Shown one piece after another: positions 45,456 to 63,878 of a stretch of DNA of 63,878 nt. The translations under genes were made by a program, and so were the position numbers. The notes below the pieces were generated by a model that had not been told where the DNA came from, did no database searches, and worked only from the letters and a program-made list of their open reading frames with translations. Source of the stretch: Patescibacteria group bacterium (lineage in GTDB: Bacteria > Patescibacteriota > Minisyncoccia > Phycocordibacterales > Phycocordibacteraceae); the NCBI GenBank assembly GCA_040384725.1, contig JAZKIS010000010.1, positions 1-63,878 on the forward strand. The letters run 5' to 3'. Position 1 is the stretch's first letter, and the number at the start of each line of letters is the position of its first letter.

Positions 45456-45931
45456 ATCGCGGATTCACCCTGATCGAGCTCCTCGTGGTTATCGCCATCA
45501 TTGGCATGCTCTCGTCGGTGGTGCTGGTGTCGCTCAGTACCGCGCGAGCGCGAGCGCGCGATGCAGAAGTAAGGATGGAGCTCGCACAGATCCGCACCGC
45601 CATACAGCTCTACTACACCCAAAACGGCTCCATGCCTCCGAACATTTACCCGACTAACTACTGCAGCAACCAGGCAAACTTCCTTCAGTCTCTGGTGACC
45701 GCCGGATACCTTCCCGCCAATATCACGGCTCCGAACAACTCGACTAACCCTTACTGCTATTACGATTACGGCTCTGGAGGCCTTCCGGGAGCCATTATCG
45801 TAGGCTGGCTCGAAGCGGCCACGCCGCCTTCTACTGCAGGATTCAGGGGGACGTGCCGGCCATGGACAGCAGGCGCGAACTGGTGCGACCAGGCCATCAA
45901 CGGGTACTACTGTCTCTGCTCTACGTACTAG
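45452..45931 (+). CDS. Type IV pilin-like protein P1 (prepilin N-terminal cleavage/methylation motif)
   Basis: MNRG|[20 protein letters not shown]... is a class III signal peptide with Glu5. Cys pairs occur in the C-terminal globular part. Confidence 0.9.
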   Translation: MNRGFTLIELLVVIAIIGMLSSVVLVSLSTARARARDAEVRMELAQIRTAIQLYYTQNGSMPPNIYPTNYCSNQANFLQSLVTAGYLPANITAPNNSTNPYCYYDYGSGGLPGAIIVGWLEAATPPSTAGFRGTCRPWTAGANWCDQAINGYYCLCSTY

Positions 45932-49871: not shown

Positions 49872-50586
49872 AAATGCCGTGCCGCTGCGTAAGTTCATCG
49901 AACTCACGATAGCGAGCGGCAATATCTGGCGCTTTCCAGAGCGCAGACCCAACCACGAGACGCTTCACGCCGGCCTCAAGGAGCTTCGGCGCGTTCTCAA
50001 GCGTCACGCCTCCGTCCACCTGTATCTCTATGGTCGGATAGCGTTTCTTGAACATCGCGATCTTCGCGAAGACCCGTACGTCGAACGGTTCTCCCTGGTG
50101 CCCGATCTTCCTGATGCCCATGAACTGCACGTAGTCGATCTTCTTCAGGTGCGGTTCGATGAGCGCGAGGTCAGTCTCGATACCGATAGAGAGCCCGAGC
50201 GACAGGAGCCCTGGCGTAAAGTCGGCGTCATGCCCGTACGTGCCGTAGGTACTCGACAGGAAACGCGGGATGAACCGCGTGCTCTCGCTATGCACCGTAA
50301 GTCTCGAGGCGCCGAGACCGATCCACGCGCCCGCTACCGATTCCGGATCGGCACTCATGAGATCGATCTCGAACCGGAAGTCCCCTGCTCGCGGAAGGAG
50401 CTCGCCCGCATTGAGCATGCGCGAAGGCTCGGCAGCATCGGTGATGTACGGCCAGCTTTTGGGCCCAGCGAACACGCCGTCCACGATATCTACCTGCACC
50501 TCTTCGCAGAGTCCGGAAAGCGTCGACAGCTTCTCCTCGAGATCCTGCCGTGACGTCGGGATTATAGCCGGAACGATTATGCCCAT
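49864..50586 (-). CDS. rpe: Divergent ribulose-phosphate 3-epimerase-like TIM-barrel protein
   Basis: ATG 50586: MGIIVPAII...VQVDIVDGVF...EIDLM...VQFMGI..GHQGEPF...IQVDGGV...LVVGSAL follows the Rpe strand-end pattern but is divergent. The upstream part of the tracked ORF overlaps rpiB. Confidence 0.7.
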   Translation of the reverse strand: MGIIVPAIIPTSRQDLEEKLSTLSGLCEEVQVDIVDGVFAGPKSWPYITDAAEPSRMLNAGELLPRAGDFRFEIDLMSADPESVAGAWIGLGASRLTVHSESTRFIPRFLSSTYGTYGHDADFTPGLLSLGLSIGIETDLALIEPHLKKIDYVQFMGIRKIGHQGEPFDVRVFAKIAMFKKRYPTIEIQVDGGVTLENAPKLLEAGVKRLVVGSALWKAPDIAARYREFDELTQRHGIYG

Positions 50587-51097: not shown

Positions 51098-51562
51098 TTA
51101 GGGGTTCGCGTAGCAGCCCGGCGAGGTCCAGCTCGCGCTCGTTTCTATATCTGACGAGGCCCCACTGCTGCCCATGCAGAAGTACCGTTGTTTACCGGGA
51201 AGATACGCCATGATTGCGAATCGATTCACGTTATCACCGTTTGTTCCCGTGTAGAGCGAGGGTCCGTTACTTACAATATTCGTACAAATTTGCCGGGCGG
51301 CCGTTGCTTGATTGCCTGAAAAGCTGTTGTTGCATTCGGCAGCAGTGTAGTCCCATCCATACGCAAACGTCGCGAAGCTTCCGGTCTGGGAAAACTCAAA
51401 CTGAGCTGCTGTTGCAAGCTGCCTAACCGCGGCCTTAATGGCAGTGTCACGTGCCTTGAGGCGGGCTGCACTGAGACCTGCTACCACGACCGACGACAGG
51501 ACGCCGATGATGGCAATCACGACGAGGAGCTCGATAAGGGTAAAGCCGCGAGTTGTGGTCAT
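51098..51562 (-). CDS. Type IV pilin-like protein P3
   Basis: MTTTRG|[20 protein letters not shown].... Its stop lies 3 nt before the rpiB ATG. Confidence 0.9.
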
Positions 51563-51819: not shown

Positions 51820-52830
51820 TTAGAGGGCTCCTGCCTTTAGTACGTGACGAACCAGGGTCGCGGTGTACCCTGCCTCGTTATCATACCAAGCAAGAACCTT
51901 TACTAAAGTGCCGTCAACAACACGCGTCATCCCGAGGTCCGCGATCGAGGCGAACCGTTGGCCGATGATGTCGCTCGAGACGTACTCCTCGTCTGACGCC
52001 TGGAACAGTCCCTGCCAGCGCGGCTGCTGTGCAGCCATGCGAAGAATGTCATTTACTTCCTCAGCCGTTGTCGGGCGCTTCGCGATGAAGGTGATGTCGG
52101 CAATCGATCCCGCGGGTACGGGAACGCGCAGCGAGATGCCGTCGAACTTGCCCAGGAGCGACGGGTACGCCTTCGTCACCGCAACCGCGGCCCCCGTTGA
52201 GGTTGGCACGATATTCTGGGCTGCTGCCCTCCCTTCTTTCATGTCCTTCTTCGAGGGGCCGTCGACGATCGCCTGCGATGCGGTGTATGCGTGGGTCGTT
52301 GAGAGCACCGCCTTCTCGATACCGATCGCCTCGTCAAGGATCGCGATCACCGGAGACGCCGAGTTCGTCGTGCACGACGCGTTACTCGTGATGGCGCAGG
52401 TTCCGAGCTTCGACTCGTCGAGCCCCATGAGCACCGTCGCGCCGAGCGGGTTCTCGTCTTTGACCGGACCCGTGATGACCACGCGCTTCGCGCCCGCAAG
52501 GATGTGCGCATTCGCCTTCTCATAATCCGTAAAGAAGCCGGTTGCTTCGACTACGACATCGATCGCGAGATCCTTCCATGGAAGCAGTGTGGGATCTTTC
52601 TCGGAGAGGAATGTCACTTCCTTTTCGTTAATGGAGAGCGCTCCTTCCTTCCACGCGACGGGAAACGGCGCACGGCCGTACACGGTATCGAACTGCAGCA
52701 GGTACGCGAGGTTCTCGCTCGAACCGAGATCATTCACGGCGACGAGCTCGATATCCGGATTATCCCAGGTCTGTCGTACAAACGCCCTTCCTATCCTGCC
52801 GAACCCGTTGATCGCTATCCTAGTCGCCAT
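51820..52830 (-). CDS. gap: Glyceraldehyde-3-phosphate dehydrogenase
   Basis: INGFGRIGR is the NAD-binding motif. SNASCTTNS carries the catalytic Cys. Confidence 0.95.
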   Translation of the reverse strand: MATRIAINGFGRIGRAFVRQTWDNPDIELVAVNDLGSSENLAYLLQFDTVYGRAPFPVAWKEGALSINEKEVTFLSEKDPTLLPWKDLAIDVVVEATGFFTDYEKANAHILAGAKRVVITGPVKDENPLGATVLMGLDESKLGTCAITSNASCTTNSASPVIAILDEAIGIEKAVLSTTHAYTASQAIVDGPSKKDMKEGRAAAQNIVPTSTGAAVAVTKAYPSLLGKFDGISLRVPVPAGSIADITFIAKRPTTAEEVNDILRMAAQQPRWQGLFQASDEEYVSSDIIGQRFASIADLGMTRVVDGTLVKVLAWYDNEAGYTATLVRHVLKAGAL

Positions 52831-52908: not shown

Positions 52909-55900
52909 CTACGAGGTAGGTTCTGGCGCCGGAGCCGGGGCAATCGGCTCAGGTTCAGGGGTAGGTTCAGGCTCGGGGGTCGGTTCTGGCGCTGGCTCAG
53001 GAGTTGGTTCAGGGGTCGGTTCTGGTGTCGGCTCTTCGGTAGGCGGCTCGATCGGATCCGTTGGAGACTCAGGAGTTGGTTCAGGGGTCGGTTCTGGCTC
53101 AGGAGTTGGTTCTGGTTGCGGTTGCGAGAGGTCTATAACCGTACACTCCCCTTCGCGGATATTCTGCTGGCCGTTTCGCATCGAGAGGCAGTACGGCTCA
53201 CCGGTTACCTCGTCATAGAAGGTTATGCCGGTCGGCTTCTCGGCGCTTCCGATCGTAAGACGCTCTGCAATGAGGTCCACCGCGGACAGGAGGCCGTTGC
53301 GGATGCTGAACTTGTCAATAATCTCGAACATGCCCTCAGCCATCGGCATGCCGGTCGGCGCGCTCGCTGCGAGCTCGAGCTCCGCGAGTCGGGTCTCGAT
53401 AGTCGCGAGGCGCTCGAATACGAGGTCAGTACGCTCAGAGATCATCTGCATGCCTGTTATGGCGTAGCTCGCCATCTTATAGAGGTCCGCGCTTCCGTTG
53501 GTAAGGACCTCGTTCGGAAGCTCTTCGTCGAAGCTCACGAGATAGAGGTTCGCAGAGACCGTCCCCGTCTCTACGCTTGCTGATGCGAGGTCTCCTATAA
53601 AGATGCCTGATTCAGAGACCGTGAGGGTGCCGGCAATGGTTGCATCAGAAGATACTTGAAGTGCGTACATCGCAGTATTCTCCGCCGCCGGCGCAATAGA
53701 GAGCGTACGCACATTGAGCTCGTTCACGCCTTCAACGAGGTACGGTATGAAGTCGAGGTACGAGACGCCGAGGTATCCCCTTTCAGCATCAACGATCTTC
53801 GCTGAGTTCGGGAGCACGGCCTGTACGTCCTGTGCGAGGAATCCAACCTCAGGACGGTTGCTGCCGATCATGTTGTACGTCTTTCCGTTAATTGCGGAGA
53901 GTACGGAGAACGGGTTCTCAATATCCTGGATATTCTCCTTGAGGCGGCGGTCTGAGACGTCGGTTATGGAGCCGGTGTACTCGATATCGCCGGTTACGTC
54001 GAGGGCGACGGATGGCGCGGTGTTATTGATACCAACATTTCCGCTCTCAAGGACGCTGAACACTTCGACGCCTCCTGTCTCGAAGAGATTGAGGATGTCC
54101 GTGGCACCGGTGGACTGGACAGCGAACCTCGAGCTGGTGGTGCTTGTGCCTACGCCGGTGTTCGTGCCGGAGAAATAGGTATTGCCAGCCGAGACCTGCA
54201 GATACGAATTGGTATTGTTCCATTGGATATAGGCGCGCTGCGCATCTGCCTGCCTGAAGCTCAGGTACGGGTTTCCAGTGGAATGCGAGTCAATCTTGAG
54301 TAGTGTATCCGCCGCCGAATAGAGGTGGAGCAACGCATTCGGAGTGGTAGTGCCGATACCGACGTTGCCCGAGTGGTATGCCGTTCCATCGGTCGCGAAC
54401 ACGTGCCTAACAGCCGTACCTCCCGAGGCGGCAATCACGAAACTTGAAAGAGAACCTCCTTGGGCTCCTGTTGGAGACCACACGAGCTGGCCGGTATGGC
54501 CCGAGAATCCTGTCATGGAGTTTGTGATAAGCGTTCCCCATGCACCAACGGCACTTCTACCGAGCTGCAACTGCTCCGATCCCCAAACATCGAGAGGCTT
54601 GTTAGGCGTTGTGGTGGCGATACCGACGTAGCCTGCCTCAGTTATAAGCATACGGGTGTTGAGCGTTCCGTTCTCGGCAGTTATGAATGCCAGGTTGCCA
54701 TCGTCTCCGGACGTACCCCTGCCTCCGGAGATGCGCGCAACGGAGTTGTGGTTGTAGTTCGATTCATAGAAGTCTATATGCGCAACCGCGCCGCCTGCAT
54801 TGTTGTTCGAACCGGAAAGCGTAAGCGTGGACTGTGCAAGACCTGCTGTAGCGACATGGAGAAGGCTCAGTGGCGTGGTGGTACCGATACCGACGTAGCC
54901 TGCATTGGTTATTCTCATCGCCTCTATCTGACCCGTGTTTGCCTTGTATACATCGAACGCGAGGCCGGTTCCTACAGGACCTGACGCCTCCGTCGTTGCA
55001 TACATTCCTCCCAGAGTAGTGGTAGTGACCTGGCTCGTTATTATCGGGTTCCTTGTTCCTATAGAGCCGAGAGGATTGTTCACCGAAAGAATCGTATTCG
55101 GTGCTGAGTTGCCGATACCGACGTTGCCACTGGTACTGACGCGGACTTTCTCAGCACCGTCAGCGAATAGTGCTAGCGCGCTTCCTGGGTCTCCGCCGAA
55201 GTATCCGACACCTGACGCGAGGTAGCCGGCACGGAGGATGTAGTTCGTATTATCGGTAAGCGTAAGCGCGTTCGCGCCAGCCGCTGCGGTGCGTGAAGAG
55301 ATGCCGTTCGCGCTTGTTGAGACGACCTGGAGCGCATAGGAGGGGTTTGTAATGCCGATACCGACGTTGCCGGAGGAAAGGATAGTCATGCTTTCAACAG
55401 GAGTGTTAGCCACGGCGTAGGTAAAGAAACTGAGTCGGCTAGTGTTTCCCGTTGCCACTTCCATGACCGTACCGATTCGCGCGCGCGGCCCACGAAGCCC
55501 GACATCCTCACTACCGAACGTAATTGCCGTGTTTGGATTTACCATGTCCCACGTGCCGCCACTTGTAGTGTCGTAGATATAGATACCGTCTCCCGTTGCT
55601 GTACCTCCAGAGATAGCGTTCGACGCGAACGCTATGGATAGCTTTCGATCTGCTGTCGTCGTGCCGATACCCACGTTCCCTCCCGTGGTAGCAAGATAAG
55701 TAGCGCCAGTCGTCGTGATCTGGGTGGTCGAGGCGTTTCCGGTAACGGTGAGGAGAGAGCCGTCGAAGGTGAGGTTAGCCTCGTCAACGAGCGCTGAGGT
55801 TCCGTTGCCTGTGATCAGGCGGTTGTTGGTGAAGGTTGAGGCACCGGTACCGCCGTCTGCCACAGGCACGTCCGTACCGCCCGCGCGGTACACGAGGTTG

Positions 55901-58900
55901 CCTTCGATGTTGAGGTTCCCTGCGCTTGCGCGTGCGAGCGTGGTATCGGAGGCCGCACCGAGCTCTATGGTTCCCGTAGTGAACGTATTCGAGGTTCCGA
56001 GCGAGAACGAGACATTCGAGGTTAGGAGTCCCGTGGAGTGCGTGATAGTAGCATTACCGTTGTTGAAGTTAAGGACGCCGCCTGACGCGAGGAAGAGGTC
56101 GGCCCACATGAGCGTTCCGGTGCCGAGCGCGTTTCCGTCGCTAGTGATAGGAGAGAGCGCAGTACCCGTGAGTGACACCTCGCCCGTGCTGTTAACCGCG
56201 AAGCCAAGCGTGCTTGCCGCCGGGAGGTACACGCCGTTAGTAGGAACGGTCGAACTGGTCGGGATGAAGGAGTTTGCGGTCAGCGGCACGTTCGACGTGA
56301 GCGCGCCTGCGGAATGCGTGAGCGTAGCGTTGCCGTTGTTGAAGTTAAGGACGCCGCCTGACGCGAGGAAGAGGTCAGCCCAGCTCTGGGTTGCGCTGCC
56401 GAGCGCAGCGACATCGTTCGTGAGAGGAAGCAGCGCTCCACCGAAGGTCTGAGCCTGGCTCCAGGAGTTCGCGGTTGTAGTGCCGAAGGCGAGAGAAATA
56501 ACACTTCCGGATACCTGTACCGGATAGGTTCCAGTGTAGGTTGTACCGCCGCCAGTGATACAGGTAGTGCCGTCGGTGCTGAAGCACGATGCGCGAACGG
56601 GGCCGGTGAAGGTTGAGGTTGCGGTTGAAGTTGCAGTAATAGTGCCGGCGAAGTAACCGCTACCGTTTACAGTGAGGAGTGCATGCGGAGAGGTGGTGCC
56701 GATACCGACGTTGCCGTTAAGCAAAGTCTGCGTGACGCTCGTATTACCTATCACAACCTGGTTACTAGCTGTGGTGTACGCTCCGTTACCGATTGCCGTT
56801 GAGTTAGATGCTGAGACGAGCTGAGAAGGGTTGTTACCCGCGCTGTATCCGATGAATGTGTTCAGGGTTCCCGTGGTAACACTAAAGCCAGCTTGTCCTC
56901 CAAGCGCTGTGTTCTGATATCCTGAGGTAACACTGAAGAGTGCGGTATCTCCCACGCCGGTGTTGTAGTAATTAGACGTCTGCGCTGAGTAGCCGGCACG
57001 GTATCCGACGAATACGTTGTTTGTTCCTGTGGTAAGGGTTGTACCTGCCTCCCGGCCTATGAATACGTTACTGCTTCCTTGCGTAACCGCGAATCCGCTC
57101 AGCGTGCCGAAGAAAGCATTACTGTCGCCAGACGTGATGCTGTACCCAGAGCGATATCCGACCATGGTGTTGTTGTTCATAGACGTACCGAACATGGCGG
57201 TTTCGTTTCCGATTACGATGTTCTGCACGCCCGTGATCGGCGTAACGAAGGAGCCGCCTGAGTGGAACCCGATAAAGATGTTGTCGTTCACGGTGTTAGC
57301 GGCACCCGCATCAACGCCGAGATTGGTGTTGTAGTTCCCCGTCTGGTTAGCGAAACCAGACTGGTACCCAATGTTCGTATTAGTTGTTCCAGTAGTGTTT
57401 GAATACCCAGCAGCATATCCAAGGTCGGTACGCGCATATCCGGTGGTGTTATTCTGTCCGGCGCCAGAACCAATGAAAGTGTTCTGTCGGCCCTGCGTCG
57501 TGCCGAGCGGAGTGTTTGCCAGTCCGGCATTCTTTCCGATGAACACGTTGGTCGAGAAGTCCGAATGTATGCGAAGAAGTTCCGCACCTAGGGTATCGTT
57601 TAGCTTAATAAATGTTGTCGTTGTCGCGCCTTGCAGAGTAAGGAGCGAAGTAGGCGTCGTCGTGCCGATACCCACGTTCCCTCCCGTGGTAGCAAGATAA
57701 GTAGCGCCAGTCGTCGTGATCTGGGTGGTCGAGGCGTTTCCGGTAACGGTGAGGAGAGAGCCGTCGAAGGTGAGGTTAGCCTCGTCAACGAGCGCTGAGG
57801 TTCCGTTGCCTGTGATCAGGCGGTTGTTGGTGAAGGTTGAGGCACCGGTACCGCCATACGTAACTGCAACCGCGGTTCCCTGCCATACACCCGTTCCAAT
57901 GGTGCCAACCGATGTGAGGGAGGAACCGGTAACACCAGAGCCGAGCGTGCTGCCGCTGAGCACGGAGGTGCCTGCAATCTGATACGAGTCGCCGCTCGCA
58001 AGATCAAGACCCGTTAGTCCGAAGTCTGCACCGAGGACGCCAGAGTACTTGATCTCGAGAGTGTCGTCTTCGGCGTCGAGAATGATACCCGACGTGGTTT
58101 GTGTCTCAATTCTGAGGTTCGCGCCATCGAAGAAGATACCGGCATCCGTACCTGCGCCAAGTGTAATGGCGCCTGCGGCATTGTATGCCGAACCGTCCAC
58201 GTCGATGATGAAGCGGCCGCCAGTGGTGATGTTTGCGATGCCAGTGTCGACGGCACCACCATTCCAAGTACCAGAGGTGATGGTGCCGACGGTATCGATA
58301 TCAGAGCCAACGAGCTTGCTTGCCGCGATGGAGCCCGCGAGCATGCCGTTGGTAACCTTGAGGGCGCCGATGGTTGTCGTAATAGCGGTAGTGCCAGAGC
58401 CCGTGACGTCGCCCGAGAGCGTGATGGTCTGGTTGCCGGTTAGATAGTCGGTACCCGCAACCGCCGGAATAACCGAGCCTGATGCATTGGTCTTGAGGAG
58501 CGAGGACGTCACGCCAGAGATCGCGAAGTTCGTGGTGGTTGCGTTCGTCGCAACGAGGCTGCCGAAGGTCTGGGTGCCGGCCCAGGTGTTTGAGGTTGTT
58601 GTGCCGAAGGCGAGGCTTATGGCGCTTCCTGATACAACAACGGGATACGTTCCGGTGTAGGTGGTGCCGCTTGTGAGACAGACACCTCCAACTGCGAAGC
58701 AGCCGGAAGAGATGCTGTATCCGCCGACACCGCTCTTCGTGGTGGTGGCGTTGTTGAAGAAGTTAGTTCCGGTTCCGGTTCCCCCAATCGAGAGGAGGGA
58801 TCCAGGGGTTGAAGTGCCGATACCGACGTTACCTGCCGCAAAGACGGTATGTCCGCTTCCTGACGACTGAGGATTTATAGAGAGGTTAGTACCATCGTAT

Positions 58901-61900
58901 GTGATACTCGCCTGCTGAGTTTCTCCGAACATCAGGTAGGCAGTATTTTCGTCGATGTAGAGGTCGCCATTCGCATAGGCCCTGAAGTTAGCGGACGTTT
59001 GCGTTGCGTTGCCAAGCCAGAAATCATCGCCCGATCCTGTAGTTTTAATATCTCCCGCTGAACTGATGTCGCTTGTTGCCACCAATAGGTCGGTAGTAAC
59101 CGTTCCTGTGAATGTTGGCCCTGCACTGAACACCAGGTTGCCACCGTCAGGGCCCGGAGTAAATCCAGTCTCATCGGTAAGGATGGCGCCGAGCTCGGCA
59201 GAGGTGTCGATAGAAGAAGAAGTGAGGTAGTCGGTACCCGCAACGGCTGCGATAACTGAGCCGGATGCATTGGTCTTGAGGAGCGAGGATGTAATGCCGG
59301 AGATTGCGAAGTTCGTCGAAGTCGCATTCGCGAACGAGGCATTGCCCGAGACCGTAAGCGTGGAAAGCGTCCCAACGCTCGTAAGGGAGGAGGCGAGGAC
59401 GTTCGAAGCGAGGGTGGCTCCCGTGAGGGTGCCGGCAGGCGCGATAACAACCGCGGTGCCGGCTGCCGTAATGAGGCCCTTGCCGTTAACGGTGAAGGTC
59501 GGGATGGCGGTAGAAGAACCGAAGGAGCCGGTGTTCGAGTTAACGGTTGCGAGCGTCGCTGCCGCTGAGCCCGGGCCGGACGCCGTGACGTCGCCGGTGA
59601 GGGCGGTTATGTAGTTCCCTGCTGCTTGGTAGTCGGTACCGGCGACGGCTGCGGAGAGGACACCTGAAGTTCCCTTGATAAGGCCGGTGAGGGTACCGAT
59701 GGTTGCAGATGGCGTGAAGAGTGCGCCGGCAGAAGAGATGGTGGTGCTTGCCGTCTGGCCTGCAGCGAAGGTGTTTGCGGTAAGTCTTCCTGAGAAGTCG
59801 TTCGTCGAAGTCGCATTCGCGAACGAGGCATTGCCCGAGACCGTAAGCGTGGAAAGCGTCCCAACGCTCGTAAGGGAGGAGGCGAGGACGTTCGAAGCGA
59901 GGGTGGCTCCCGTGAGGGTGCCGGCAGGCGCGATAACAACCGCGGTGCCGGCTGCCGTAATGAGGCCCTTGCCGTTAACGGTGAAGGTCGGGATGGCGGT
60001 AGAAGAACCGAAGGAGCCGGTGTTCGAGTTAACGGTTGCGAGCGTCGCTGCCGCTGAGCCCGGGCCGGACGCCGTGACGTCGCCGGTGAGGGCGGTTATG
60101 TAGTTCCCTGCTGCTTGGTAGTCGGTACCGGCGACGGCTGTCTGTACCTGGCCCGTACCGTTACCCTTAAGGATGCCTGAGAGTGTCGTTGAGCCCGTAC
60201 CCCCATTCCCAACCGGGAGCGTTCCCGTAACGCCGGTGGTAAGAGAGACGTTCGTGATGGTGTTGTTCGAACCGCTGATGGTCTTGTTCTGGAAGGTCTC
60301 GGTGCCAAGGAGCGTCGCGAGAGTACCGGTTGTCGGGAGCGTGACGTTCGTAGTGCCGGTCTGGGTGAGGGTAAGGGCGAAGTTGCCTGAGGTAGTGAGG
60401 TTGTTGCCGAGGGTGATGGTCCTGCCGGTGTTCGCGACGCCGGTACCGCCGTACTGCCCTGCTATAACGGTGCCATTCCAAGTACCAGAGGTGATGGTGC
60501 CGAACTCTAGATTTCCAAAAGCATCAATTATCAAAGAACTGTTACCGTAGGAGAATTCTCCATTACCATCATTGTATTGAGCAATGCTTCCCCCGATCGA
60601 ATCATATATCCCTGTAACAAAGTTCTCCTCGTTCCCAGCAGAGAGGATTAGGTCGCCCGCACCGTTAATACCGTCCGCTGTTATAAGTGCTACCGCATTA
60701 ATAGTACCGAGTGACGAGACCGTACCTGCCGTAAGGACTCCGCTAATGGACGCGGTTCCCGTCGCCGTAAGGTTTGCGAGAGATAGATTTCCCGAGAAGA
60801 GGCCGTTGCCTTGAACTGACAGGAGCTGTGAAGGCGTCGTAGTACCAATGCCGAAATTACCGGCACTGGTAATAACCGCTCGCTGCGTATTGTCTGTACT
60901 GAATGCGACGCTCGTTGTTGCGGGGAAGAACATGCCGGCAGTTGTTCCGGGGCCCGCATAGACTGGGTCTGAGGCTGTGCCGATATTAGTAGCAGCATAG
61001 TACGGACTTTGCGTGAATTCCGTTGCGGTAACTTGAGGCGCAACAAACGATCCATGAGCATCGAATTCGTAGGTGTGGCCATGCACTGCCGAATCACTCA
61101 CGTAGAGGTATTGCGAGTGGTCCGCATTGTCATACCAGAATCGGGAACTGGTTGTCAGGTCATCGTAGTTTTGGAATAGGATCGACGGATTCCATAGCGC
61201 ACCTACGATCAAAGAGTCGACGGGTGCCCCACCGCTTGTTCCTGCACTAAGATTTCCTACCCGTGCGACCCCCCACACATCAAGCTTAGTGCCCGGCGTC
61301 GTCGTCCCGATACCCACGTTCCCTCCTGTGGTAGCAAGATAAGTAGCGCCGGTCGTGGTGATCTGGGTAGTCGAGGCGTTTCCGGTAACGGTGAGGAGAG
61401 AGCCGTCGAAGGTGAGGTTAGCCTCGTCAACGAGCGCTGAGGTTCCGTTTCCGGTTAGGAGACGGTTGTTGGTGAAGGTGGCAGCACCCGTACCCCCATT
61501 CCCAACCGGGAGCGTTCCCGTAACGCCGGTGGTAAGAGAGACGTTCGTGATGGTGTTGTTCGAACCGCTGATGGTCTTGTTCTGGAAGGTCTCGGTGCCA
61601 AGGAGCGTCGCGAGAGTACCGGTTGTCGGGAGCGTGACGTTCGTAGTGCCGGTCTGGGTGAGGGTAAGGGCGAAGTTGCCTGAGGTAGTGAGGTTGTTGC
61701 CGAGGGTGATGGTCCTGCCGGTGTTCGCGACGCCGGTACCGCCGTACTGCCCTGCTATAACGGTGCCATTCCAAGTACCAGAGGTGATGGTGCCGACGGT
61801 ATCGATATCAGAGCCAACGAGCTTGCTTGCCGCGATGGAGCCCGCGAGCATGCCGTTGGTAACCTTGAGGGCGCCGATGGTTGTCGTAATAGCGGTAGTG

Positions 61901-63878
61901 CCAGAGCCCGTGACGTCGCCCGAGAGCGTGATGGTCTGGTTGCCGGTTAGATAGTCGGTACCCGCAACCGCCGGAATAACCGAGCCTGATGCATTGGTCT
62001 TGAGGAGCGAGGACGTCACGCCAGAGATCGCGAAGTTCGTGGTGGTTGCGTTCGTCGCAACGAGGCTGCCGAAGGTCTGGGTGCCGGCCCAGGTATTTGA
62101 GGTTGTTGTGCCGAAGGCGAGGGAGATGGCATTCGTGCTGCGGACGAGCGGATAGCTGAAGGTGAGAGGGTTCTCGTAGTCGGTGCCGGCGGTTGCGGCA
62201 GAGAGGACGCCGGAGGTCGCCTTAACGAGTCCGTTCGAGAGACCAGAGAAGGTGATGGTGCCCGCGGAGGTGAGAGACGTAAGCGTCCCAACGCTCGTAA
62301 GGGAGGAGGCGAGGACGTTCGAAGCGAGGGTGGCTCCCGTGAGGGTGCCGGCAGGCGCGATAACAACCGCGGTGCCGGCTGCCGTAATGAGGCCCTTGCC
62401 GTTAACGGTGAAGGTCGGGATGGCGGTAGAAGAACCGAAGGAGCCGGTGTTCGAGTTAACGGTTGCGAGCGTCGCTGCCGCTGAGCCCGGGCCGGACGCC
62501 GTGACGTCGCCGGTGAGGGCGGTTATGTAGTTCCCTGCTGCTTGGTAGTCGGTACCCGCAACCGCCGGAATAACCGAGCCTGATGCATTGGTCTTGAGGA
62601 GCGAGGACGTCACGCCAGAGATCGCGAAGTTCGTGGTGGTTGCGTTCGTCGCAACGAGGCTGCCGAAGGTCTGGGTGCCGGCCCAGGTGTTTGAGGTTGT
62701 TGTGCCGAAGGCGAGGGAGATAACGTTAGACGCAATCTGGAGCGGATAGGTCGCTGACGTTATGCGGTTGGTGTAGGCCGTATCCCATTCCGTCTGCTTT
62801 GCGGTTGTTGGGATCGCGTAGCCGCCGGTGAGGGAGAAGACACCCGTACCGCTGGTGTACGTGAGGCCGGTTGCGGTGCTTGAGAAGAGGCCGCGGGCGG
62901 TTGCCCCGAAGTCAGAGATGGTTGAAGCGAGCTGGGTACCGGTGTGGTTCGCGCGGTCGAGGTAGTAGCTTCCCTCCTGGCCGTCGAAGGTGCCGGTCCA
63001 GTTGCCCATTACGCTGGCGACGTAATCCGTGCCTGGAGTTGCGACCGACACGACACCTGACGTTGCCTTGAGAAGTCCGGTGAGAGAACCGATGGTTGCA
63101 GTACCAGTTGTCGTTAGATTGCCTGCAATGTAGGAGCTGCCAGCAACCGAGAAGAGCGCGCCAGGAGTCGTCGTACCGATCCCGACATTTCCGCCGAGGA
63201 ATGTCGCGGCAGGTCCCGTACTGTTCTGTTCAATAGCGAGTGTCGGGTACGCGGACGTAGATGACGCGGAGAGCTGACCCCAGGGAGTCGTAGTGCCGAT
63301 CCCGACTTCACCTGCACCCGTAACCATCACACGGACCGTATTGTTCGTCGCGAGCGATAGCGGACTATCGGTCATGTTCACGAGATTCACGGAGTTCGCG
63401 CCGCCATAGTTGCTGTTTGCTGAACCGTTCACGAAGATCCCACCGACATTCGTCGAAGTATCGTTTCCAAAATTGAGCGCAGAGAACGCCAGGCCGCCTG
63501 AGTTTGCGTTTCTCAGGTAGTAGCGGATGGCAGAATTCTGGTTACCCTGCACATCGAGAAGCGAGCCGAGGAGCGCGACTCCAGGGTTTGTCGTTCCTAT
63601 ACCGACGCTTCCAGAAGTACCGATGCGCATGTATTCCGTGCCACCCACCTCAAAAGCGAGCGCGTTATAGTCGTTCGTACCGAGCACTGCCGTTGCCCCG
63701 AAGGAGTTGCCGTCCTGAAGGAAGAAGCCGGACGAGAGCGATGAGGTAGAGATGTCGAGTGTGTTGCCGCTCCATGAAAGACCGTTACCAGCCGTGATCC
63801 GGGTAGAGGGAGTGTCATAGAAGGTACTCCATTCAGTCGTACTCGCCGTTAGAGGGATGGAGTAGCCGCTCGTTAACG
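52909..63878 (-). CDS. Giant tail-fibre/adhesin-like surface protein, 5'-truncated by the window edge (>3,650 codons)
   Basis: Single open minus-strand frame from the right edge to TAG 52909. My hand translation of 63876..63688 shows no stop upstream of the tracked GTG 63687. The protein is G/T/S/A/N-rich with about 15 GNVGIGTT(T/S)P-type punctuations. It has a YadA-head-like xxxIGxxAG block (about 56750-57560) and a peptidase-S74 module starting at Ser codon 53955-53953. A coiled-coil segment and a PEPT-rich tail follow. Confidence 0.9.
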   Translation of the reverse strand, partial: LTSGYSIPLTASTTEWSTFYDTPSTRITAGNGLSWSGNTLDISTSSLSSGFFLQDGNSFGATAVLGTNDYNALAFEVGGTEYMRIGTSGSVGIGTTNPGVALLGSLLDVQGNQNSAIRYYLRNANSGGLAFSALNFGNDTSTNVGGIFVNGSANSNYGGANSVNLVNMTDSPLSLATNNTVRVMVTGAGEVGIGTTTPWGQLSASSTSAYPTLAIEQNSTGPAATFLGGNVGIGTTTPGALFSVAGSSYIAGNLTTTGTATIGSLTGLLKATSGVVSVATPGTDYVASVMGNWTGTFDGQEGSYYLDRANHTGTQLASTISDFGATARGLFSSTATGLTYTSGTGVFSLTGGYAIPTTAKQTEWDTAYTNRITSATYPLQIASNVISLAFGTTTSNTWAGTQTFGSLVATNATTTNFAISGVTSSLLKTNASGSVIPAVAGTDYQAAGNYITALTGDVTASGPGSAAATLATVNSNTGSFGSSTAIPTFTVNGKGLITAAGTAVVIAPAGTLTGATLASNVLASSLTSVGTLTSLTSAGTITFSGLSNGLVKATSGVLSAATAGTDYENPLTFSYPLVRSTNAISLAFGTTTSNTWAGTQTFGSLVATNATTTNFAISGVTSSLLKTNASGSVIPAVAGTDYLTGNQTITLSGDVTGSGTTAITTTIGALKVTNGMLAGSIAASKLVGSDIDTVGTITSGTWNGTVIAGQYGGTGVANTGRTITLGNNLTTSGNFALTLTQTGTTNVTLPTTGTLATLLGTETFQNKTISGSNNTITNVSLTTGVTGTLPVGNGGTGAATFTNNRLLTGNGTSALVDEANLTFDGSLLTVTGNASTTQITTTGATYLATTGGNVGIGTTTPGTKLDVWGVARVGNLSAGTSGGAPVDSLIVGALWNPSILFQNYDDLTTSSRFWYDNADHSQYLYVSDSAVHGHTYEFDAHGSFVAPQVTATEFTQSPYYAATNIGTASDPVYAGPGTTAGMFFPATTSVAFSTDNTQRAVITSAGNFGIGTTTPSQLLSVQGNGLFSGNLSLANLTATGTASISGVLTAGTVSSLGTINAVALITADGINGAGDLILSAGNEENFVTGIYDSIGGSIAQYNDGNGEFSYGNSSLIIDAFGNLEFGTITSGTWNGTVIAGQYGGTGVANTGRTITLGNNLTTSGNFALTLTQTGTTNVTLPTTGTLATLLGTETFQNKTISGSNNTITNVSLTTGVTGTLPVGNGGTGSTTLSGILKGNGTGQVQTAVAGTDYQAAGNYITALTGDVTASGPGSAAATLATVNSNTGSFGSSTAIPTFTVNGKGLITAAGTAVVIAPAGTLTGATLASNVLASSLTSVGTLSTLTVSGNASFANATSTNDFSGRLTANTFAAGQTASTTISSAGALFTPSATIGTLTGLIKGTSGVLSAAVAGTDYQAAGNYITALTGDVTASGPGSAAATLATVNSNTGSFGSSTAIPTFTVNGKGLITAAGTAVVIAPAGTLTGATLASNVLASSLTSVGTLSTLTVSGNASFANATSTNFAISGITSSLLKTNASGSVIAAVAGTDYLTSSSIDTSAELGAILTDETGFTPGPDGGNLVFSAGPTFTGTVTTDLLVATSDISSAGDIKTTGSGDDFWLGNATQTSANFRAYANGDLYIDENTAYLMFGETQQASITYDGTNLSINPQSSGSGHTVFAAGNVGIGTSTPGSLLSIGGTGTGTNFFNNATTTKSGVGGYSISSGCFAVGGVCLTSGTTYTGTYPVVVSGSAISLAFGTTTSNTWAGTQTFGSLVATNATTTNFAISGVTSSLLKTNASGSVIPAVAGTDYLTGNQTITLSGDVTGSGTTAITTTIGALKVTNGMLAGSIAASKLVGSDIDTVGTITSGTWNGGAVDTGIANITTGGRFIIDVDGSAYNAAGAITLGAGTDAGIFFDGANLRIETQTTSGIILDAEDDTLEIKYSGVLGADFGLTGLDLASGDSYQIAGTSVLSGSTLGSGVTGSSLTSVGTIGTGVWQGTAVAVTYGGTGASTFTNNRLITGNGTSALVDEANLTFDGSLLTVTGNASTTQITTTGATYLATTGGNVGIGTTTPTSLLTLQGATTTTFIKLNDTLGAELLRIHSDFSTNVFIGKNAGLANTPLGTTQGRQNTFIGSGAGQNNTTGYARTDLGYAAGYSNTTGTTNTNIGYQSGFANQTGNYNTNLGVDAGAANTVNDNIFIGFHSGGSFVTPITGVQNIVIGNETAMFGTSMNNNTMVGYRSGYSITSGDSNAFFGTLSGFAVTQGSSNVFIGREAGTTLTTGTNNVFVGYRAGYSAQTSNYYNTGVGDTALFSVTSGYQNTALGGQAGFSVTTGTLNTFIGYSAGNNPSQLVSASNSTAIGNGAYTTASNQVVIGNTSVTQTLLNGNVGIGTTSPHALLTVNGSGYFAGTITATSTATSTFTGPVRASCFSTDGTTCITGGGTTYTGTYPVQVSGSVISLAFGTTTANSWSQAQTFGGALLPLTNDVAALGSATQSWADLFLASGGVLNFNNGNATLTHSAGALTSNVPLTANSFIPTSSTVPTNGVYLPAASTLGFAVNSTGEVSLTGTALSPITSDGNALGTGTLMWADLFLASGGVLNFNNGNATITHSTGLLTSNVSFSLGTSNTFTTGTIELGAASDTTLARASAGNLNIEGNLVYRAGGTDVPVADGGTGASTFTNNRLITGNGTSALVDEANLTFDGSLLTVTGNASTTQITTTGATYLATTGGNVGIGTTTADRKLSIAFASNAISGGTATGDGIYIYDTTSGGTWDMVNPNTAITFGSEDVGLRGPRARIGTVMEVATGNTSRLSFFTYAVANTPVESMTILSSGNVGIGITNPSYALQVVSTSANGISSRTAAAGANALTLTDNTNYILRAGYLASGVGYFGGDPGSALALFADGAEKVRVSTSGNVGIGNSAPNTILSVNNPLGSIGTRNPIITSQVTTTTLGGMYATTEASGPVGTGLAFDVYKANTGQIEAMRITNAGYVGIGTTTPLSLLHVATAGLAQSTLTLSGSNNNAGGAVAHIDFYESNYNHNSVARISGGRGTSGDDGNLAFITAENGTLNTRMLITEAGYVGIATTTPNKPLDVWGSEQLQLGRSAVGAWGTLITNSMTGFSGHTGQLVWSPTGAQGGSLSSFVIAASGGTAVRHVFATDGTAYHSGNVGIGTTTPNALLHLYSAADTLLKIDSHSTGNPYLSFRQADAQRAYIQWNNTNSYLQVSAGNTYFSGTNTGVGTSTTSSRFAVQSTGATDILNLFETGGVEVFSVLESGNVGINNTAPSVALDVTGDIEYTGSITDVSDRRLKENIQDIENPFSVLSAINGKTYNMIGSNRPEVGFLAQDVQAVLPNSAKIVDAERGYLGVSYLDFIPYLVEGVNELNVRTLSIAPAAENTAMYALQVSSDATIAGTLTVSESGIFIGDLASASVETGTVSANLYLVSFDEELPNEVLTNGSADLYKMASYAITGMQMISERTDLVFERLATIETRLAELELAASAPTGMPMAEGMFEIIDKFSIRNGLLSAVDLIAERLTIGSAEKPTGITFYDEVTGEPYCLSMRNGQQNIREGECTVIDLSQPQPEPTPEPEPTPEPTPESPTDPIEPPTEEPTPEPTPEPTPEPAPEPTPEPEPTPEPEPIAPAPAPEPTS
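53709..53955 (-). other. Peptidase-S74-like intramolecular chaperone/autocleavage module inside the giant ORF
   Basis: SDRRLKENIQDIENPFSVLSAINGKTYNMIGSNRPEVGFLAQDVQAVLPNSAKIVDAERGYLGVSYLDFIPYLVEGVNEL. Ser with Lys at +5 has the spacing of the endosialidase Ser-Lys dyad. Confidence 0.75.
55655..55854 (-). repeat. Intragenic repeat D, copy a (200 nt)
   Basis: Identical to 57656..57855 (offset 2,001 nt = 667 codons). It encodes FTNNRLITGNGTSALVDEANLTFDGSLLTVTGNASTTQITTTGATYLATTGGNVGIGTTT. Confidence 0.85.
57656..57855 (-). repeat. Intragenic repeat D, copy b (200 nt)
   Basis: Identical to 55655..55854. Confidence 0.85.
58259..58615 (-). repeat. Intragenic repeat C, copy a (357 nt)
   Basis: Matches 61766..62122 with a single G/A difference (58588 vs 62095). 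Its 3' 171 nt also recur at 62546..62716. Confidence 0.85.
59311..59651 (-). repeat. Intragenic repeat A, copy a (341 nt)
   Basis: By my reading it is identical base for base to 59800..60140 (offset 489 nt = 163 codons). It encodes ...AGTDYQAAGNYITALTGDVTASGPGSAAATLATVNSNTGSFGSSTAIPTFTVNGKGLITAAGTAVVIAPAGTLTGATLASNVLASSLTSVGTL... Confidence 0.85.
59800..60140 (-). repeat. Intragenic repeat A, copy b (341 nt)
   Basis: Identical to 59311..59651. Confidence 0.85.
60194..60503 (-). repeat. Intragenic repeat B, copy a (310 nt)
   Basis: Identical to 61487..61796 (offset 1,293 nt = 431 codons). It encodes GTITSGTWNGTVIAGQYGGTGVANTGRTITLGNNLTTSGNFALTLTQTGTTNVTLPTTGTLATLLGTETFQNKTISGSNNTITNVSLTTGVTGTLPVGNGGTG. 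Confidence 0.85.
61298..61480 (-). repeat. Intragenic repeat D, diverged copy c
   Basis: Same module with roughly ten substitutions (e.g. GTCCCGATACC vs GTGCCGATACC). Confidence 0.7.
61487..61796 (-). repeat. Intragenic repeat B, copy b (310 nt)
   Basis: Identical to 60194..60503. It runs directly into repeat C copy b. Confidence 0.85.
61766..62122 (-). repeat. Intragenic repeat C, copy b (357 nt)
   Basis: See 58259..58615 (offset 3,507 nt = 1,169 codons). Confidence 0.85.
62281..62556 (-). repeat. Intragenic repeat A, copy c (276-nt core)
   Basis: Identical to 59365..59640 and 59854..60129 (offset 2,916 nt = 972 codons from copy a). Confidence 0.85.
62546..62716 (-). repeat. Intragenic repeat C, partial copy c (171 nt)
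   Basis: Identical to 58445..58615 (offset 4,101 nt). Confidence 0.8.

What the first reader, a model, noticed from the sequence alone, without database searches (positions are those of the whole stretch)
52909..63878. Giant cell-encoded tail-fibre/adhesin-like gene (>3,650 codons, runs off the window) directly upstream of gap
One uninterrupted minus-strand frame runs from the right edge to TAG 52909. I translated 63876->63688 by hand (LTSGYSIPLTASTTEWSTFYDTPSTRITAGNGLSWSGNTLDISTSSLSSGFFLQDGNSFGATA) and found no stop. The tracked 3,592-aa ORF is therefore only the part after the first in-frame GTG. The protein is built from reshuffled modules: GTITSGTWNG..., FTNNRL(I/L)TGNGTSALVDEANLTFDGSLLTVTGNASTTQITTTG..., AGTDY.... 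These are punctuated about 15 times by G(N/Y)VGIGTT(T/S)P. It also has a YadA-head-like block, a run of ~100-130-aa fibre units and a peptidase-S74 module. These are hallmarks of phage tail fibres and endosialidase-type trimeric fibres. Yet the 53 kb to its left holds no capsid, terminase, portal or integrase gene, and the gene abuts a core glycolytic operon. In an organism with CPR-like reduced housekeeping genes, such a fibre is a plausible partner- or host-attachment organelle. I do not know of a described system of this layout.
Basis: partly seen in the sequence, partly recalled or inferred. Interest (0 to 1): 0.85.

Follow-up and report, generated by a model that had tools for sequence, protein, structure and literature searches.

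The report
Giant tail-fibre-like surface fibre gene
A tiny, host-dependent bacterium (Patescibacteria/CPR) carries on its own chromosome a gene of more than 3,655 codons built from phage tail-fibre parts, most likely encoding a very long surface fibre for gripping other cells; it resembles the prey-recognition fibres of Bdellovibrio but is several times larger.

Summary
One minus-strand frame runs from 63876 to TAG 52909: 3,655 codons, no stop, cut by the contig end. It is a mosaic of reused modules and has 15 G-x-V-G-I-G motifs. One Peptidase_S74 intramolecular-chaperone domain carries an intact SDRRLK Ser/Lys motif. The 'YadA-head' label found no support.

The organism is a Patescibacteria (Parcubacteria-like) bacterium. 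The window is the whole contig, so the N-terminus cannot be recovered from it. Relatives supply the missing part. In syntenic genomes a giant gene called at 3,484, 4,190, 4,280 or 4,480 aa sits directly upstream of gap. The one complete locus recovered reads MurB-SecA-Obg-GatB-small HTH_17/TM protein-GIANT-gap, with no phage genes. That ortholog starts with a cytoplasmic HTH_17 domain and one transmembrane helix. Flanking gap proteins are 92-93% identical, but the giants only about 25%.

Best reading: a chromosomal, membrane-anchored, S74-chaperoned, probably trimeric surface fibre used for host or partner attachment. It is the CPR counterpart of the Bdellovibrio MAT fibres (Caulton 2024). The family is large: 7,698 representatives at E<=1e-10, and 123 of the 141 newly returned top hits are 1,000-7,453 aa. 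I rate it a new variant of a known kind. Module order is uncertain because exact repeats reach 341 nt.

The parts
52909..63878 (-). Giant open frame, 3,655 codons plus TAG. It is 5'-truncated by the contig end.
   Evidence: By alignment to the ortholog P0428, about 1,000-1,300 aa are probably missing (window aa 30-106 = P0428 aa 1199-1277, 62% identity).
62857..63876 (-). aa 1-340: the first fibre units in the window, with three GxVGIGT motifs and the conserved NWTGTFDGQEGSYYL motif.
   Evidence: Up to 97% identical over short motifs to giant proteins in metagenome loci L022, L024 and L026.
57637..62859 (-). aa 340-2080: mosaic zone of reused modules (SLAFGTTTSNTW..., AGTDY..., GDVTGSG...IAASKL..., GTITSGTWNG...GGTG, FTNNRL...). 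Several copies are 100% identical at the nucleotide level.
   Evidence: The modules are 60-80% identical to ~400-aa proteins, some of which carry Mtd_N or T4_gp9_10. The AF2 monomer is an extended coil with pLDDT 65-84.
   Evidence: for the repeat pattern. tblastn gives 32-42% identity to podophage tail-fibre or 'tail structural' proteins such as Roseobacter phage CRP-1 and pelagiphages. No YadA_head or Hep_Hag.
55957..56469 (-). aa 2470-2640: two tandem ~92-aa units (…WADLFLASGGVLNFNNGNAT(L/I)THS…).
   Evidence: (family D6).
53992..55539 (-). aa 2780-3295: run of ~80-110-aa fibre units, each ending in G-N/Y-V-G-I-G-x-x-x-P.
   Evidence: About 25% identity to cyanopodovirus and pelagiphage tail fibres.
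53695..53955 (-). Peptidase_S74 / intramolecular-chaperone domain (aa 3308-3394).
   Evidence: Pfam E 3e-13. PDB sequence hits 6f45 and 7dc3. AF2 pLDDT above 90. Foldseek top hit is the MyRF ICA domain 7dc3 at E 5e-5, followed by 3gw6.
53938..53955 (-). SDRRLK: predicted autocleavage Ser3308 and catalytic Lys3313.
   Evidence: In the 41-sequence alignment A1, S, R, L and K are at least 90% conserved and D is invariant. This is the same SDxxxK motif as in MAT Bd3182.
53125..53694 (-). aa 3395-3584: post-S74 extension with long helices (coiled-coil-like) and a small two-Cys beta domain (GITFYDEVTGEPYCL...GEC).
   Evidence: AF2. The Cys motif recurs at the C-termini of L045 and L043, and in a looser form in L003, L005, L006, L026 and L047. 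Full-length matches to this post-S74 region came only from P0001-P0003.
52912..53124 (-). aa 3585-3655: Pro/Glu/Thr-rich low-complexity tail.
   Evidence: Similar tails occur in the orthologs.
51820..52830 (-). gap (GAPDH), the conserved downstream neighbour that marks the locus.
   Evidence: The synteny is kept in L054, L055, L059-L061 and L062. No terminator-like site lies in the 78-nt spacer.

Best explanation
This is the C-terminal part of a chromosomal gene, at least 3,655 aa here and probably about 4,700-4,900 aa in full. It encodes a giant cell-surface fibre of a Patescibacteria (CPR) bacterium.

Inferred mechanism:
1. The missing N-terminus carries a cytoplasmic HTH_17 domain and a single signal-anchor transmembrane helix, as in the positional ortholog. 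Everything present in the window lies outside the cell.
2. Three chains are registered and folded from the C-terminus by the Peptidase_S74 intramolecular chaperone.
3. The chaperone then cuts itself off at Ser3308 (SDRRLK). This releases a 348-aa C-terminal fragment and exposes the distal fibre tip.
4. The mature product is a membrane-anchored, Thr/Gly/Ser/Ala/Asn-rich trimeric fibre built from phage-tail-fibre-type modules. Scaling from Bd3182 (about 550 A for about 780 mature residues) gives a length of order 200-300 nm.
5. The fibre contacts host or partner cells. Specificity evolves by module duplication, exchange and recombination at a fixed chromosomal locus.

Shown here: the ORF, the modules, the S74 domain with intact catalytic motif and predicted fold, the non-phage chromosomal context, the conserved locus, the N-terminal HTH_17+TM in the ortholog, and the hypervariability.

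Inferred: trimerisation, autocleavage, surface display, fibre length and adhesin function.
For: ORF and modules.

S74 domain:
- Pfam 50.1 bits against a cut-off of 22.
- PHROG 'long tail fiber distal subunit'.
- PDB sequence hits 6f45 and 7dc3.
- Conserved S-D-x-R-L-K.
- AF2 pLDDT above 90, with Foldseek hits to MyRF ICA (E 5e-5) and endosialidase IMC 3gw6.

Chromosomal context:
- gap, rpiB, rpe, tkt, fba, L25, RF, PheT, GyrB, DnaE, SMC and others in the window.
- The organism is Patescibacteria.

Positional orthologs directly upstream of gap:
- 3,484 aa (L054/L062), 4,480 aa (L055) and 4,190/4,280/>=3,613 aa (L059-61); only the 3,484-aa gene was read end to end.
- The full ortholog locus reads MurB-SecA-Obg-GatB-HTH_17/TM small protein-giant-gap.
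- A GatB-proximal giant, mostly with SecA and Obg further upstream and a small HTH_17/TM protein between, occurs in 8 further loci.

N-terminus and topology:
- The ortholog's N-terminus has HTH_17 at 36 bits (cut-off 27) and one TM helix at aa 124-148.
- The window part has no TM-like segment.

Hypervariability: gap is 92-93% identical but the giants about 25%. A 110-aa stretch is identical to P0348 inside otherwise divergent sequence.

Family size: 43,720, 7,698 and 225 representatives at E<=1e-3, 1e-10 and 1e-30. 123 of the 141 newly returned top hits are 1,000-7,453 aa, and 98 of those 123 have SDxxxK near the C-terminus.

Functional analogy: Bdellovibrio MAT fibres are experimentally shown to be surface-displayed, S74-processed and prey-glycan-binding (PMC10769870). 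Giant membrane proteins and adhesins are implicated in CPR host attachment (PMC8080830; PMC10633639 and PMC11665869).
Against: - The N-terminus is absent from the contig, so the anchor and topology rest on an ortholog that is only about 25% identical overall.
- No trimer model could be run. Monomer AF2 of the module region is mostly coil, and its Foldseek hits to viral fibres are not significant (best E 1.5e-3).
- No expression, proteomic or imaging evidence exists.
- Exact repeats up to 341 nt make the internal module order uncertain.
- The 348-aa post-S74 extension is much longer than a classical intramolecular chaperone and is unexplained.
- The adhesin function is by analogy only. No recognisable ligand-binding tip domain (lectin, TNF-like, Ig-like) was found in the window protein, although its orthologs carry Bact_surface_Ig-like.
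Confidence: 0.72

Rival explanations
1. It is an ordinary phage, prophage or tailocin tail-fibre gene whose partner genes lie just beyond the right end of the contig.
For: Every recognisable module has phage tail-fibre relatives. S74 is classically a phage domain. The right flank of this contig is unseen.
Against: The left 53 kb has no phage genes among the 30 ORFs scanned. In the syntenic relative the upstream 10 kb reads Wzy/TPR-MurB-SecA-Obg-GatB-HTH protein. The same housekeeping neighbours flank relatives in 8 other loci. The gene occupies the same position next to gap in at least 5 related genomes. The ortholog has a cytoplasmic HTH plus a TM anchor, which virion fibres lack. Its size is 3-5 times that of typical tail fibres.
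Confidence: 0.03
2. The gene is real and surface-exposed, but the product is a structural or protective coat (S-layer-like fuzz, spacer, anti-phage or anti-grazing shield, or biofilm matrix fibre) rather than a specific host-attachment adhesin.
For: The Thr/Gly/Ser/Ala/Asn-rich composition and a Pro/Glu/Thr-rich tail resemble wall-spanning or glycosylated coat proteins. No defined ligand-binding tip domain was found in the window protein. There is a single copy at a core housekeeping locus.
Against: Extreme divergence at a conserved locus (about 25% against 92-93% for gap) and mosaic exchange are typical of molecules under diversifying selection at an interface with other organisms, although that is also compatible with phage evasion. 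The closest characterised analogues bind prey glycans.
Confidence: 0.15
3. The reading frame as assembled is partly an artefact. Short-read assembly through near-identical modules produced a wrong order or copy number, or joined two or more adjacent fibre genes.
For: 27% of the gene is in exact repeats of at least 40 nt, up to 341 nt. The contig ends inside the gene, as do the contigs of relatives L056 and L058. Three assemblies with an identical last 9,947 nt report different total lengths of 4,190, 4,280 and >=3,613 aa.
Against: The frame stays open through 10,965 nt with no N. Complete orthologs of 3,484 and 4,480 aa lie on 405-675 kb contigs, and the 3,484-aa protein was returned complete on both of two independent ~674.6-kb assemblies. 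Many representatives exceed 3,000 aa. The unique C-terminal ~900 aa, which carries the S74 domain, contains no long exact repeat. This rival affects details, not the existence or nature of the gene.
Confidence: 0.1

Closest known systems
Bdellovibrio bacteriovorus MAT (mosaic adhesive trimer) fibres, S74 subgroup, e.g. Bd3182 (Caulton et al. 2024, Nat Microbiol, PMC10769870)
   Same: Both are cell-encoded rather than prophage genes. Both are mosaic fibres with phage-tail-fibre-like modules. Both have a Peptidase_S74 chaperone-protease with an SDxxxK motif, at the C-terminus in MAT and 348 aa from the end here. A V-G-x-G...P...L loop motif recurs upstream of S74. Both organisms live on other bacteria. 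Both families also have members without S74 (for example L003, L026 and L030 here).
   Different: The size is at least 3,655 aa (orthologs 3,484-4,480 aa) against about 600-1,100 aa. The N-terminus in the ortholog is a cytoplasmic HTH_17 plus a TM anchor, whereas MAT proteins have a signal peptide plus a conserved ~130-aa beta domain. There is a 348-aa post-S74 extension. It is a single hypervariable gene at a conserved housekeeping locus, not 21 dispersed paralogues. No CPR member appears in the part of that paper's supplement I could search. I made no direct sequence comparison with the MAT N-domains.
Phage tail fibres and tailspikes with a C-terminal intramolecular chaperone (K1F endosialidase 3GW6, T5 pb1, S16 gp37 6F45, cyanopodovirus and pelagiphage tail fibres)
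   Same: The S74 domain, its catalytic motif and its predicted fold. The fibre-unit and 17-residue-repeat modules are 25-42% identical to phage tail-fibre proteins.
   Different: There is no phage genome around it. It is membrane-anchored by inference from the ortholog. It is 3-5 times longer, is inherited at a chromosomal locus, and has a long extension after the chaperone.
MyRF (myelin regulatory factor) ICA domain, PDB 7DC3
   Same: It is the best structural match to the S74 domain (Foldseek E 5e-5). It is also a case where an S74 domain shares a polypeptide with a DNA-binding domain and a TM helix, an architectural parallel I draw from prior knowledge.
   Different: The domain order differs. 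MyRF is DBD-ICA-TM, so cleavage frees the DNA-binding trimer. Here the order is HTH-TM-fibre-S74, so cleavage would free only the C-terminal fragment. The DNA-binding domain type is different, and MyRF is eukaryotic.
Giant membrane proteins of CPR bacteria (e.g. Vampirococcus lugosii, 1,392-4,163 aa; PMC8080830) and the surface adhesins essential in Southlakia epibionticum (PMC10633639)
   Same: The same superphylum and size class, an inferred membrane location and an inferred role in host attachment.
   Different: Those proteins are described with WD40, PKD, DUF11, integrin and fibronectin-type domains. An S74/tail-fibre architecture is not mentioned in the passages I read.
Trimeric autotransporter adhesins (YadA, BadA)
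   Same: A long, repetitive, presumably trimeric adhesin fibre containing a short N-x-x-I-G-type repeat block.
   Different: There are no YadA_head, Hep_Hag or YadA_anchor domains. Trimerisation would come from an S74 chaperone rather than an outer-membrane beta-barrel anchor.

Membership tests
Peptidase_S74 (intramolecular chaperone) fibre proteins, Pfam PF13884 | Match to PF13884 above the gathering score | tested here: met
   50.1 bits against a cut-off of 22, aa 3308-3357. 53.9 bits when the C-terminal segment is scanned alone.
Peptidase_S74 (intramolecular chaperone) fibre proteins, Pfam PF13884 | Catalytic Ser-Lys dyad in an S-D-x-x-x-K motif | tested here: met
   SDRRLK at aa 3308-3313. 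S, R, L and K are at least 90% conserved and D is invariant across 41 homologues.
Peptidase_S74 (intramolecular chaperone) fibre proteins, Pfam PF13884 | IMC/ICA three-dimensional fold | tested here: met
   AF2 pLDDT 90-96 over the domain. Foldseek finds 7dc3 at E 5e-5 (TM-score on target 0.61-0.63), with 3gw6 next.
Peptidase_S74 (intramolecular chaperone) fibre proteins, Pfam PF13884 | Trimerisation and autoproteolytic release of the C-terminal domain | not testable with these tools
   This needs multimer modelling or biochemistry (wild type against S3308A).
Bdellovibrio MAT superfamily (S74 subgroup) | Cell-encoded mosaic fibre ending in an S74 domain with SDxxxK | tested here: met
   The definition is taken from PMC10769870.
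Bdellovibrio MAT superfamily (S74 subgroup) | Signal peptide followed by the conserved ~130-aa beta-rich N-terminal domain | tested here: inconclusive
   The N-terminus is off the contig. The positional ortholog P0428 starts with HTH_17 and one TM helix and has no signal peptide. The MAT N-domain sequence itself was not available for comparison.
Bdellovibrio MAT superfamily (S74 subgroup) | Surface display and binding of prey or host surface glycans | not testable with these tools
   This is an experimental property.
Structural tail fibre of a phage, prophage or tailocin | Encoded within a block of virion or tail morphogenesis genes | tested here: not met
   The window's left 53 kb is housekeeping among the 30 ORFs scanned. 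The ortholog's upstream 10 kb reads MurB-SecA-Obg-GatB. The same holds in 8 more loci. The true right flank of this contig is unseen.
Structural tail fibre of a phage, prophage or tailocin | Sequence similarity to known tail-fibre proteins | tested here: met
   PHROG 33119. tblastn to podophage, cyanophage and pelagiphage tail fibres at 25-42% identity, module by module.
Trimeric autotransporter adhesins (YadA-like) | YadA_head or Hep_Hag repeats and a C-terminal YadA_anchor beta-barrel | tested here: not met
   No such Pfam hit even at E<=1 on ten segments. No PDB sequence hit. No similarity to the YadA_head-bearing protein P0038. The C-terminus is S74 followed by a Pro-rich tail.
DGR (diversity-generating retroelement) variable protein, Mtd-like | Template and variable repeat pair differing at adenines, with a nearby reverse transcriptase | tested here: not met
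   Mismatches between near-identical repeats are spread over all base pairs with no A bias. No RT appeared among the scanned ORFs, but not every small ORF was scanned.

The most novel reading that the evidence does not exclude
The giant fibre may be the extracellular arm of a membrane-tethered DNA-binding protein. The architecture would be cytoplasmic HTH_17, one TM helix, a fibre of several thousand residues, then S74. It would be paired with the small HTH_17-linker-TM protein encoded immediately upstream in the nine related loci examined. Contact of the fibre with a host cell would then be signalled directly to the epibiont's DNA (ToxR-like), or would tether the nucleoid to the attachment site. 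This would be a contact-sensing system specific to Patescibacteria. It would also be a second, independent case after MyRF of an S74 domain fused to a DNA-binding domain and a TM helix.
Probability: 0.1. Interest if true: 0.85.

Novelty: new variant of a known kind. Interest (0 to 1): 0.6.

Why it matters
How ultra-small CPR/Patescibacteria find and hold their hosts is largely unknown. Type IV pili and unnamed 'adhesins' are the current candidates.

This locus offers a concrete candidate specificity determinant. It is a single, syntenic, hypervariable gene for a phage-fibre-like surface filament, possibly as long as the cell is wide. It lies between GatB and gap in a Parcubacteria-like clade and next to GatB in several other Patescibacteria contigs.

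Because the flanks are conserved, the gene can be recovered and compared across populations. Module and tip variation can then be correlated with co-occurring hosts.

The finding also extends the Bdellovibrio MAT concept, cellular reuse of phage receptor-binding hardware, to a second and very large bacterial radiation and to protein sizes 3-5 times larger.

There is a practical point for genome curation. In this contig and in two relatives, the contig ends inside this gene, so it is probably under-reported in MAGs.

Tried and rejected
- A whole-protein homologue search timed out.
- An exact look-up of the truncated product found nothing. Only a 3.9-kb Logan contig carries the same gap gene.
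- The metagenome scan with the first 350 aa did not recover an extension of this contig, only relatives. The true N-terminus therefore remains unknown.
I reached it instead through gap homologues and through P0428.
- P0348, the closest full-length relative, is not on record in any contig.
- The search for homologous proteins returned only proteins of 531 aa or less in the two fibre-module searches. Giant relatives had to be found through DNA scans and the representative search.
- NCBIfam gave no hit.
- The YadA-head idea is rejected.
- The DGR idea is rejected.
- Prophage, tailocin or eCIS origin is rejected on context.
- The AF2 monomer of modules aa 640-900 gave an extended coil with no confident fold, and Foldseek against viral models was not significant.
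- Literature searches linking Patescibacteria/CPR with S74, intramolecular chaperone, MAT or tail fibre found nothing specific. This is absence in that library only.
Full report

Yes. Translating window 63876->52909 on the minus strand gives 3,655 sense codons and then TAG, with no internal stop. The ORF listing shows only the 3,592-aa part that follows the first in-frame GTG. No other frame in the region exceeds 245 aa.

Proteins of the window are recorded on a contig whose greatest length is 63,878 bp. The window is therefore the entire contig, and the gene is cut by its end.

The protein is Thr 16.6%, Gly 13.7%, Ala 10.6%, Ser 10.2% and Asn 7.1%. It has 15 G-x-(V/F)-G-I-(G/A/N) motifs. Tiled self-BLAST shows extensive module reuse.

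At the DNA level several copies are 100% identical, with exact repeats of 341, 329, 310 and 276 nt. In all, 27% of the gene lies in exact repeats of at least 40 nt. The gene is real, but module order and copy number between about aa 440 and 2740 should be treated as provisional.

**2. What domains can be recognised?**

Only one Pfam family matches, Peptidase_S74, the 'chaperone of endosialidase' (aa 3308-3357, 50.1 bits against a cut-off of 22). Scanning ten segments separately at E<=1 adds nothing credible. NCBIfam gives nothing. PHROGs gives 'long tail fiber protein distal subunit'.

A PDB sequence search hits phage S16 gp37 (6f45) and the MyRF ICA domain (7dc3) over the same region.

The motif SDRRLK at aa 3308-3313 is the Ser/Lys dyad. 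It is conserved in a 41-sequence alignment.

An AlphaFold2 model of aa 3230-3590 has pLDDT 90-96 across the S74 domain. Foldseek returns MyRF ICA (E 5e-5) and then the K1F endosialidase intramolecular chaperone 3gw6.

After the S74 domain come long helices, a small two-Cys beta domain and a 71-aa Pro/Glu/Thr-rich tail. If cleavage occurs, it would release 348 residues.

The 'YadA-head-like' block (aa 2105-2385) is a real ~17-residue repeat, but it shows no YadA_head or Hep_Hag signal. Its detectable relatives are podophage tail-fibre or 'tail structural' proteins at 32-42% identity.

The C-terminal fibre units plus S74 resemble cyanopodovirus and pelagiphage tail fibres at about 25% identity.

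The GDVTGSG...IAASKL...GTITSGTWNG...GGTG modules are 60-80% identical to many ~400-aa proteins, some of which carry Mtd_N or T4_gp9_10 domains.

An AF2 monomer of aa 640-900 is an extended coil. Its Foldseek hits, all phage fibre proteins, are not significant.

**3. Whose gene is it?**

The left 53 kb encodes gap, rpiB, rpe, split transketolase, PfkB, class-I aldolase, L25, a release factor, PheT, GyrB, DnaE, a class II aminoacyl-tRNA synthetase, SMC, GDH and RNase R. It also encodes pilin-like proteins, an SLT transglycosylase and two CARDB/PKD proteins. No phage gene was found among the 30 ORFs scanned.

Members of the 90%-identity cluster of its L25 protein are named Patescibacteria group bacterium. 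The nearest named gap proteins are from Parcubacteria or Patescibacteria.

**4. The missing right flank, seen through relatives**

Looking up near-identical L25 and gap proteins led to syntenic contigs. In those relatives a giant gene also lies directly upstream of gap:
- 3,484 aa on a 674.6-kb contig (L051, L054, L062).
- 4,480 aa on a 405-kb contig (L055).
- 4,190, 4,280 and >=3,613 aa in three assemblies that share an identical gap protein and an identical last 9,947 nt (L059-61).

Only the 3,484-aa gene was read end to end. The other lengths are the called product sizes, and their N-terminal parts lie outside the fetched loci. Two further relatives have contigs that end inside the gene, as this one does.

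The complete ortholog locus reads: Wzy_C/TPR - MurB - SecA - Obg - GatB - a 302-aa HTH_17/TM protein - the giant - gap - pilin - rpiB - rpe and onward.

In eight more loci found by DNA scans of genomes and metagenomes, a giant gene again lies next to GatB. Most of these loci also show SecA and Obg further upstream and a small HTH_17/TM protein in between. The prophage alternative is thus refuted by proxy.

The ortholog P0428 begins with an HTH_17 domain (36 bits, cut-off 27) and a single hydrophobic helix at aa 124-148. Other giant representatives also start with HTH_17 or MerR plus a TM helix, or with a signal peptide.

The window part has no TM-like segment. Window aa 30-106 align with P0428 aa 1199-1277 at 62% identity. 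Roughly 1,000-1,300 residues are therefore probably missing (inference).

**5. Evolutionary behaviour**

The relatives' gap proteins are 92-93% identical to the window's. Alignable flanking DNA (gap, and the L25-aldolase-PfkB stretch) is about 79-81% identical. The giant proteins align at only about 25%. Yet a 110-aa stretch across the S74 domain is identical to another giant, P0348, whose flanks differ.

This looks like a hypervariable, recombining mosaic gene at a fixed locus. Near-identical repeats show no adenine-specific mismatch pattern, so DGR mutagenesis is not indicated.

**6. Size of the family**

A full HMMER scan of 1.84 billion representatives with aa 2740-3585 gave 43,720 hits at E<=1e-3, 7,698 at E<=1e-10 and 225 at E<=1e-30. 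Of the 141 newly returned proteins among the best 150 hits, 123 are 1,000-7,453 aa. Of those 123, 98 have SDxxxK within 800 aa of the C-terminus, and the median is 16 G-x-V-G-I-G motifs.

S74-bearing relatives in Patescibacteria, Omnitrophota and Flavobacteriia are already labelled 'tail fiber domain-containing protein' by public annotation.

**7. How it most likely works**

Established for characterised S74 proteins (K1F endosialidase, T5 pb1, MyRF, Bd3182; summarised in PMC10769870): the C-terminal domain nucleates and checks trimer formation of the preceding fibre, then cleaves itself off at the Ser of SDxxxK.

By inference, this protein is inserted with its N-terminus in the cytoplasm and one TM helix, as seen in the ortholog. 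Its several thousand extracellular residues would then fold into a trimeric fibre. The 348-aa C-terminal fragment would be removed to expose the distal end.

Scaling from Bd3182 (about 550 A for about 780 mature residues) gives a length of order 200-300 nm (inference).

The organism's lifestyle, the gene's hypervariability and the Bdellovibrio precedent together make host or partner attachment the most likely role.

Three things remain unexplained: the long post-S74 extension, the cytoplasmic HTH_17 domain, and the conserved small HTH_17/TM partner gene.

**8. Comparison with known systems, and novelty**

The closest characterised system is the MAT (mosaic adhesive trimer) fibre family of Bdellovibrio. 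These are cell-encoded, mosaic, phage-like fibres, 13 of 21 ending in S74 with SDxxxK. They are surface-displayed and one binds prey glycans.

This protein shares the logic and the S74 end. It differs in four respects:
- Size, 3-5 times larger.
- N-terminal anchor, HTH_17+TM against a signal peptide plus a conserved beta domain.
- The post-S74 extension.
- Genomic organisation, one hypervariable gene at a core locus.

The part of the MAT paper's supplement I could search lists S74-like relatives in Micavibrio, Omnitrophica and Uabimicrobium but no CPR.

CPR papers mention giant membrane proteins and adhesins without this architecture. My searches found no paper linking Patescibacteria with S74, MAT or tail-fibre proteins.

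I therefore rate it a new variant of a known kind, not categorically new. Interest is 0.6. It is a concrete, recoverable candidate for host-specificity in CPR bacteria, with an unexplained membrane-tethered HTH. However, it rests on inference for function and on an ortholog for the N-terminus.

Noticed in passing
window 51098-51562 (-), 49317-49952 (-), 45452-45931 (+): At least two type IV pilin-like genes (N_methyl motif) are interleaved with pentose-phosphate and glycolysis genes (gap, rpiB, rpe, tkt, pfkB, fba). The third ORF listed (45452-45931) was not scanned, but the syntenic 159-aa gene in L054 carries N_methyl. This odd interleaving is conserved in the syntenic relatives L054, L055 and L059, so it is a stable feature of the clade.
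   Followed up: partly
L062 8468-9376; L003 5040-5870; L026 5615-6322; L005 3584-4363; L024 4295-5287; L022 2858-3877: A conserved small protein is encoded immediately upstream of the giant gene in relatives. It has an N-terminal HTH_17 (…GYAKDY(V/I)GQLCREGRVEA…GR(S/N)WYV), an acidic linker, a C-terminal TM helix and a short (F/Y)LGGKS tail. It looks like a dedicated partner of the giant protein, whose own N-terminus has the same HTH-TM layout.
   Followed up: partly
window 37614-39635 (-), 39713-42034 (-), 42075-43406 (-): Two large CARDB/PKD-domain proteins (673 and 773 aa) lie next to an SLT-type lytic transglycosylase and L25. The same SLT-CARDB cluster is kept in the relatives (L051, L058). 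It may be a second surface or cell-wall module near the fibre locus.
   Followed up: no
window 22036-24003 (-): A 655-aa ORF without Pfam hits has an N-terminal hydrophobic anchor followed by a run of about 45 consecutive prolines. This tract is the only other repeated 40-mer in the window. It is probably another wall-spanning surface protein. It is not homologous to the 655-aa gene next to gap in L056.
   Followed up: partly
L059, L060, L061 (ENA YUYA23-1 samples): Three assemblies share an identical gap protein and an identical last 9,947 nt of the giant gene but call products of 4,190, 4,280 and >=3,613 aa. This is either real length polymorphism in the N-terminal repeats or assembly variation. 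The contigs of L056, L058 and this window all end inside the gene, so such genes are probably under-represented in MAGs.
   Followed up: partly
window 53542-53871 (aa 3289-3398) versus P0348 aa 3159-3268: A 110-aa stretch spanning the S74 domain is identical to that of another giant protein whose neighbouring sequence is only about 36% identical. This suggests recent recombination of a cassette between fibre genes.
   Followed up: partly
window 105-2720 (+): An 871-aa ORF with a GTG start has no Pfam hit and a composition typical of the antisense strand of a GC-rich gene. It may be spurious, or the real gene may be on the other strand. I did not resolve this.
   Followed up: no
(tool behaviour): The word-indexed homologue search returned only proteins of 531 aa or less in the two fibre-module searches, although many giant relatives exist in the same collections. 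Negative results from that tool for long proteins should not be trusted.
   Followed up: yes
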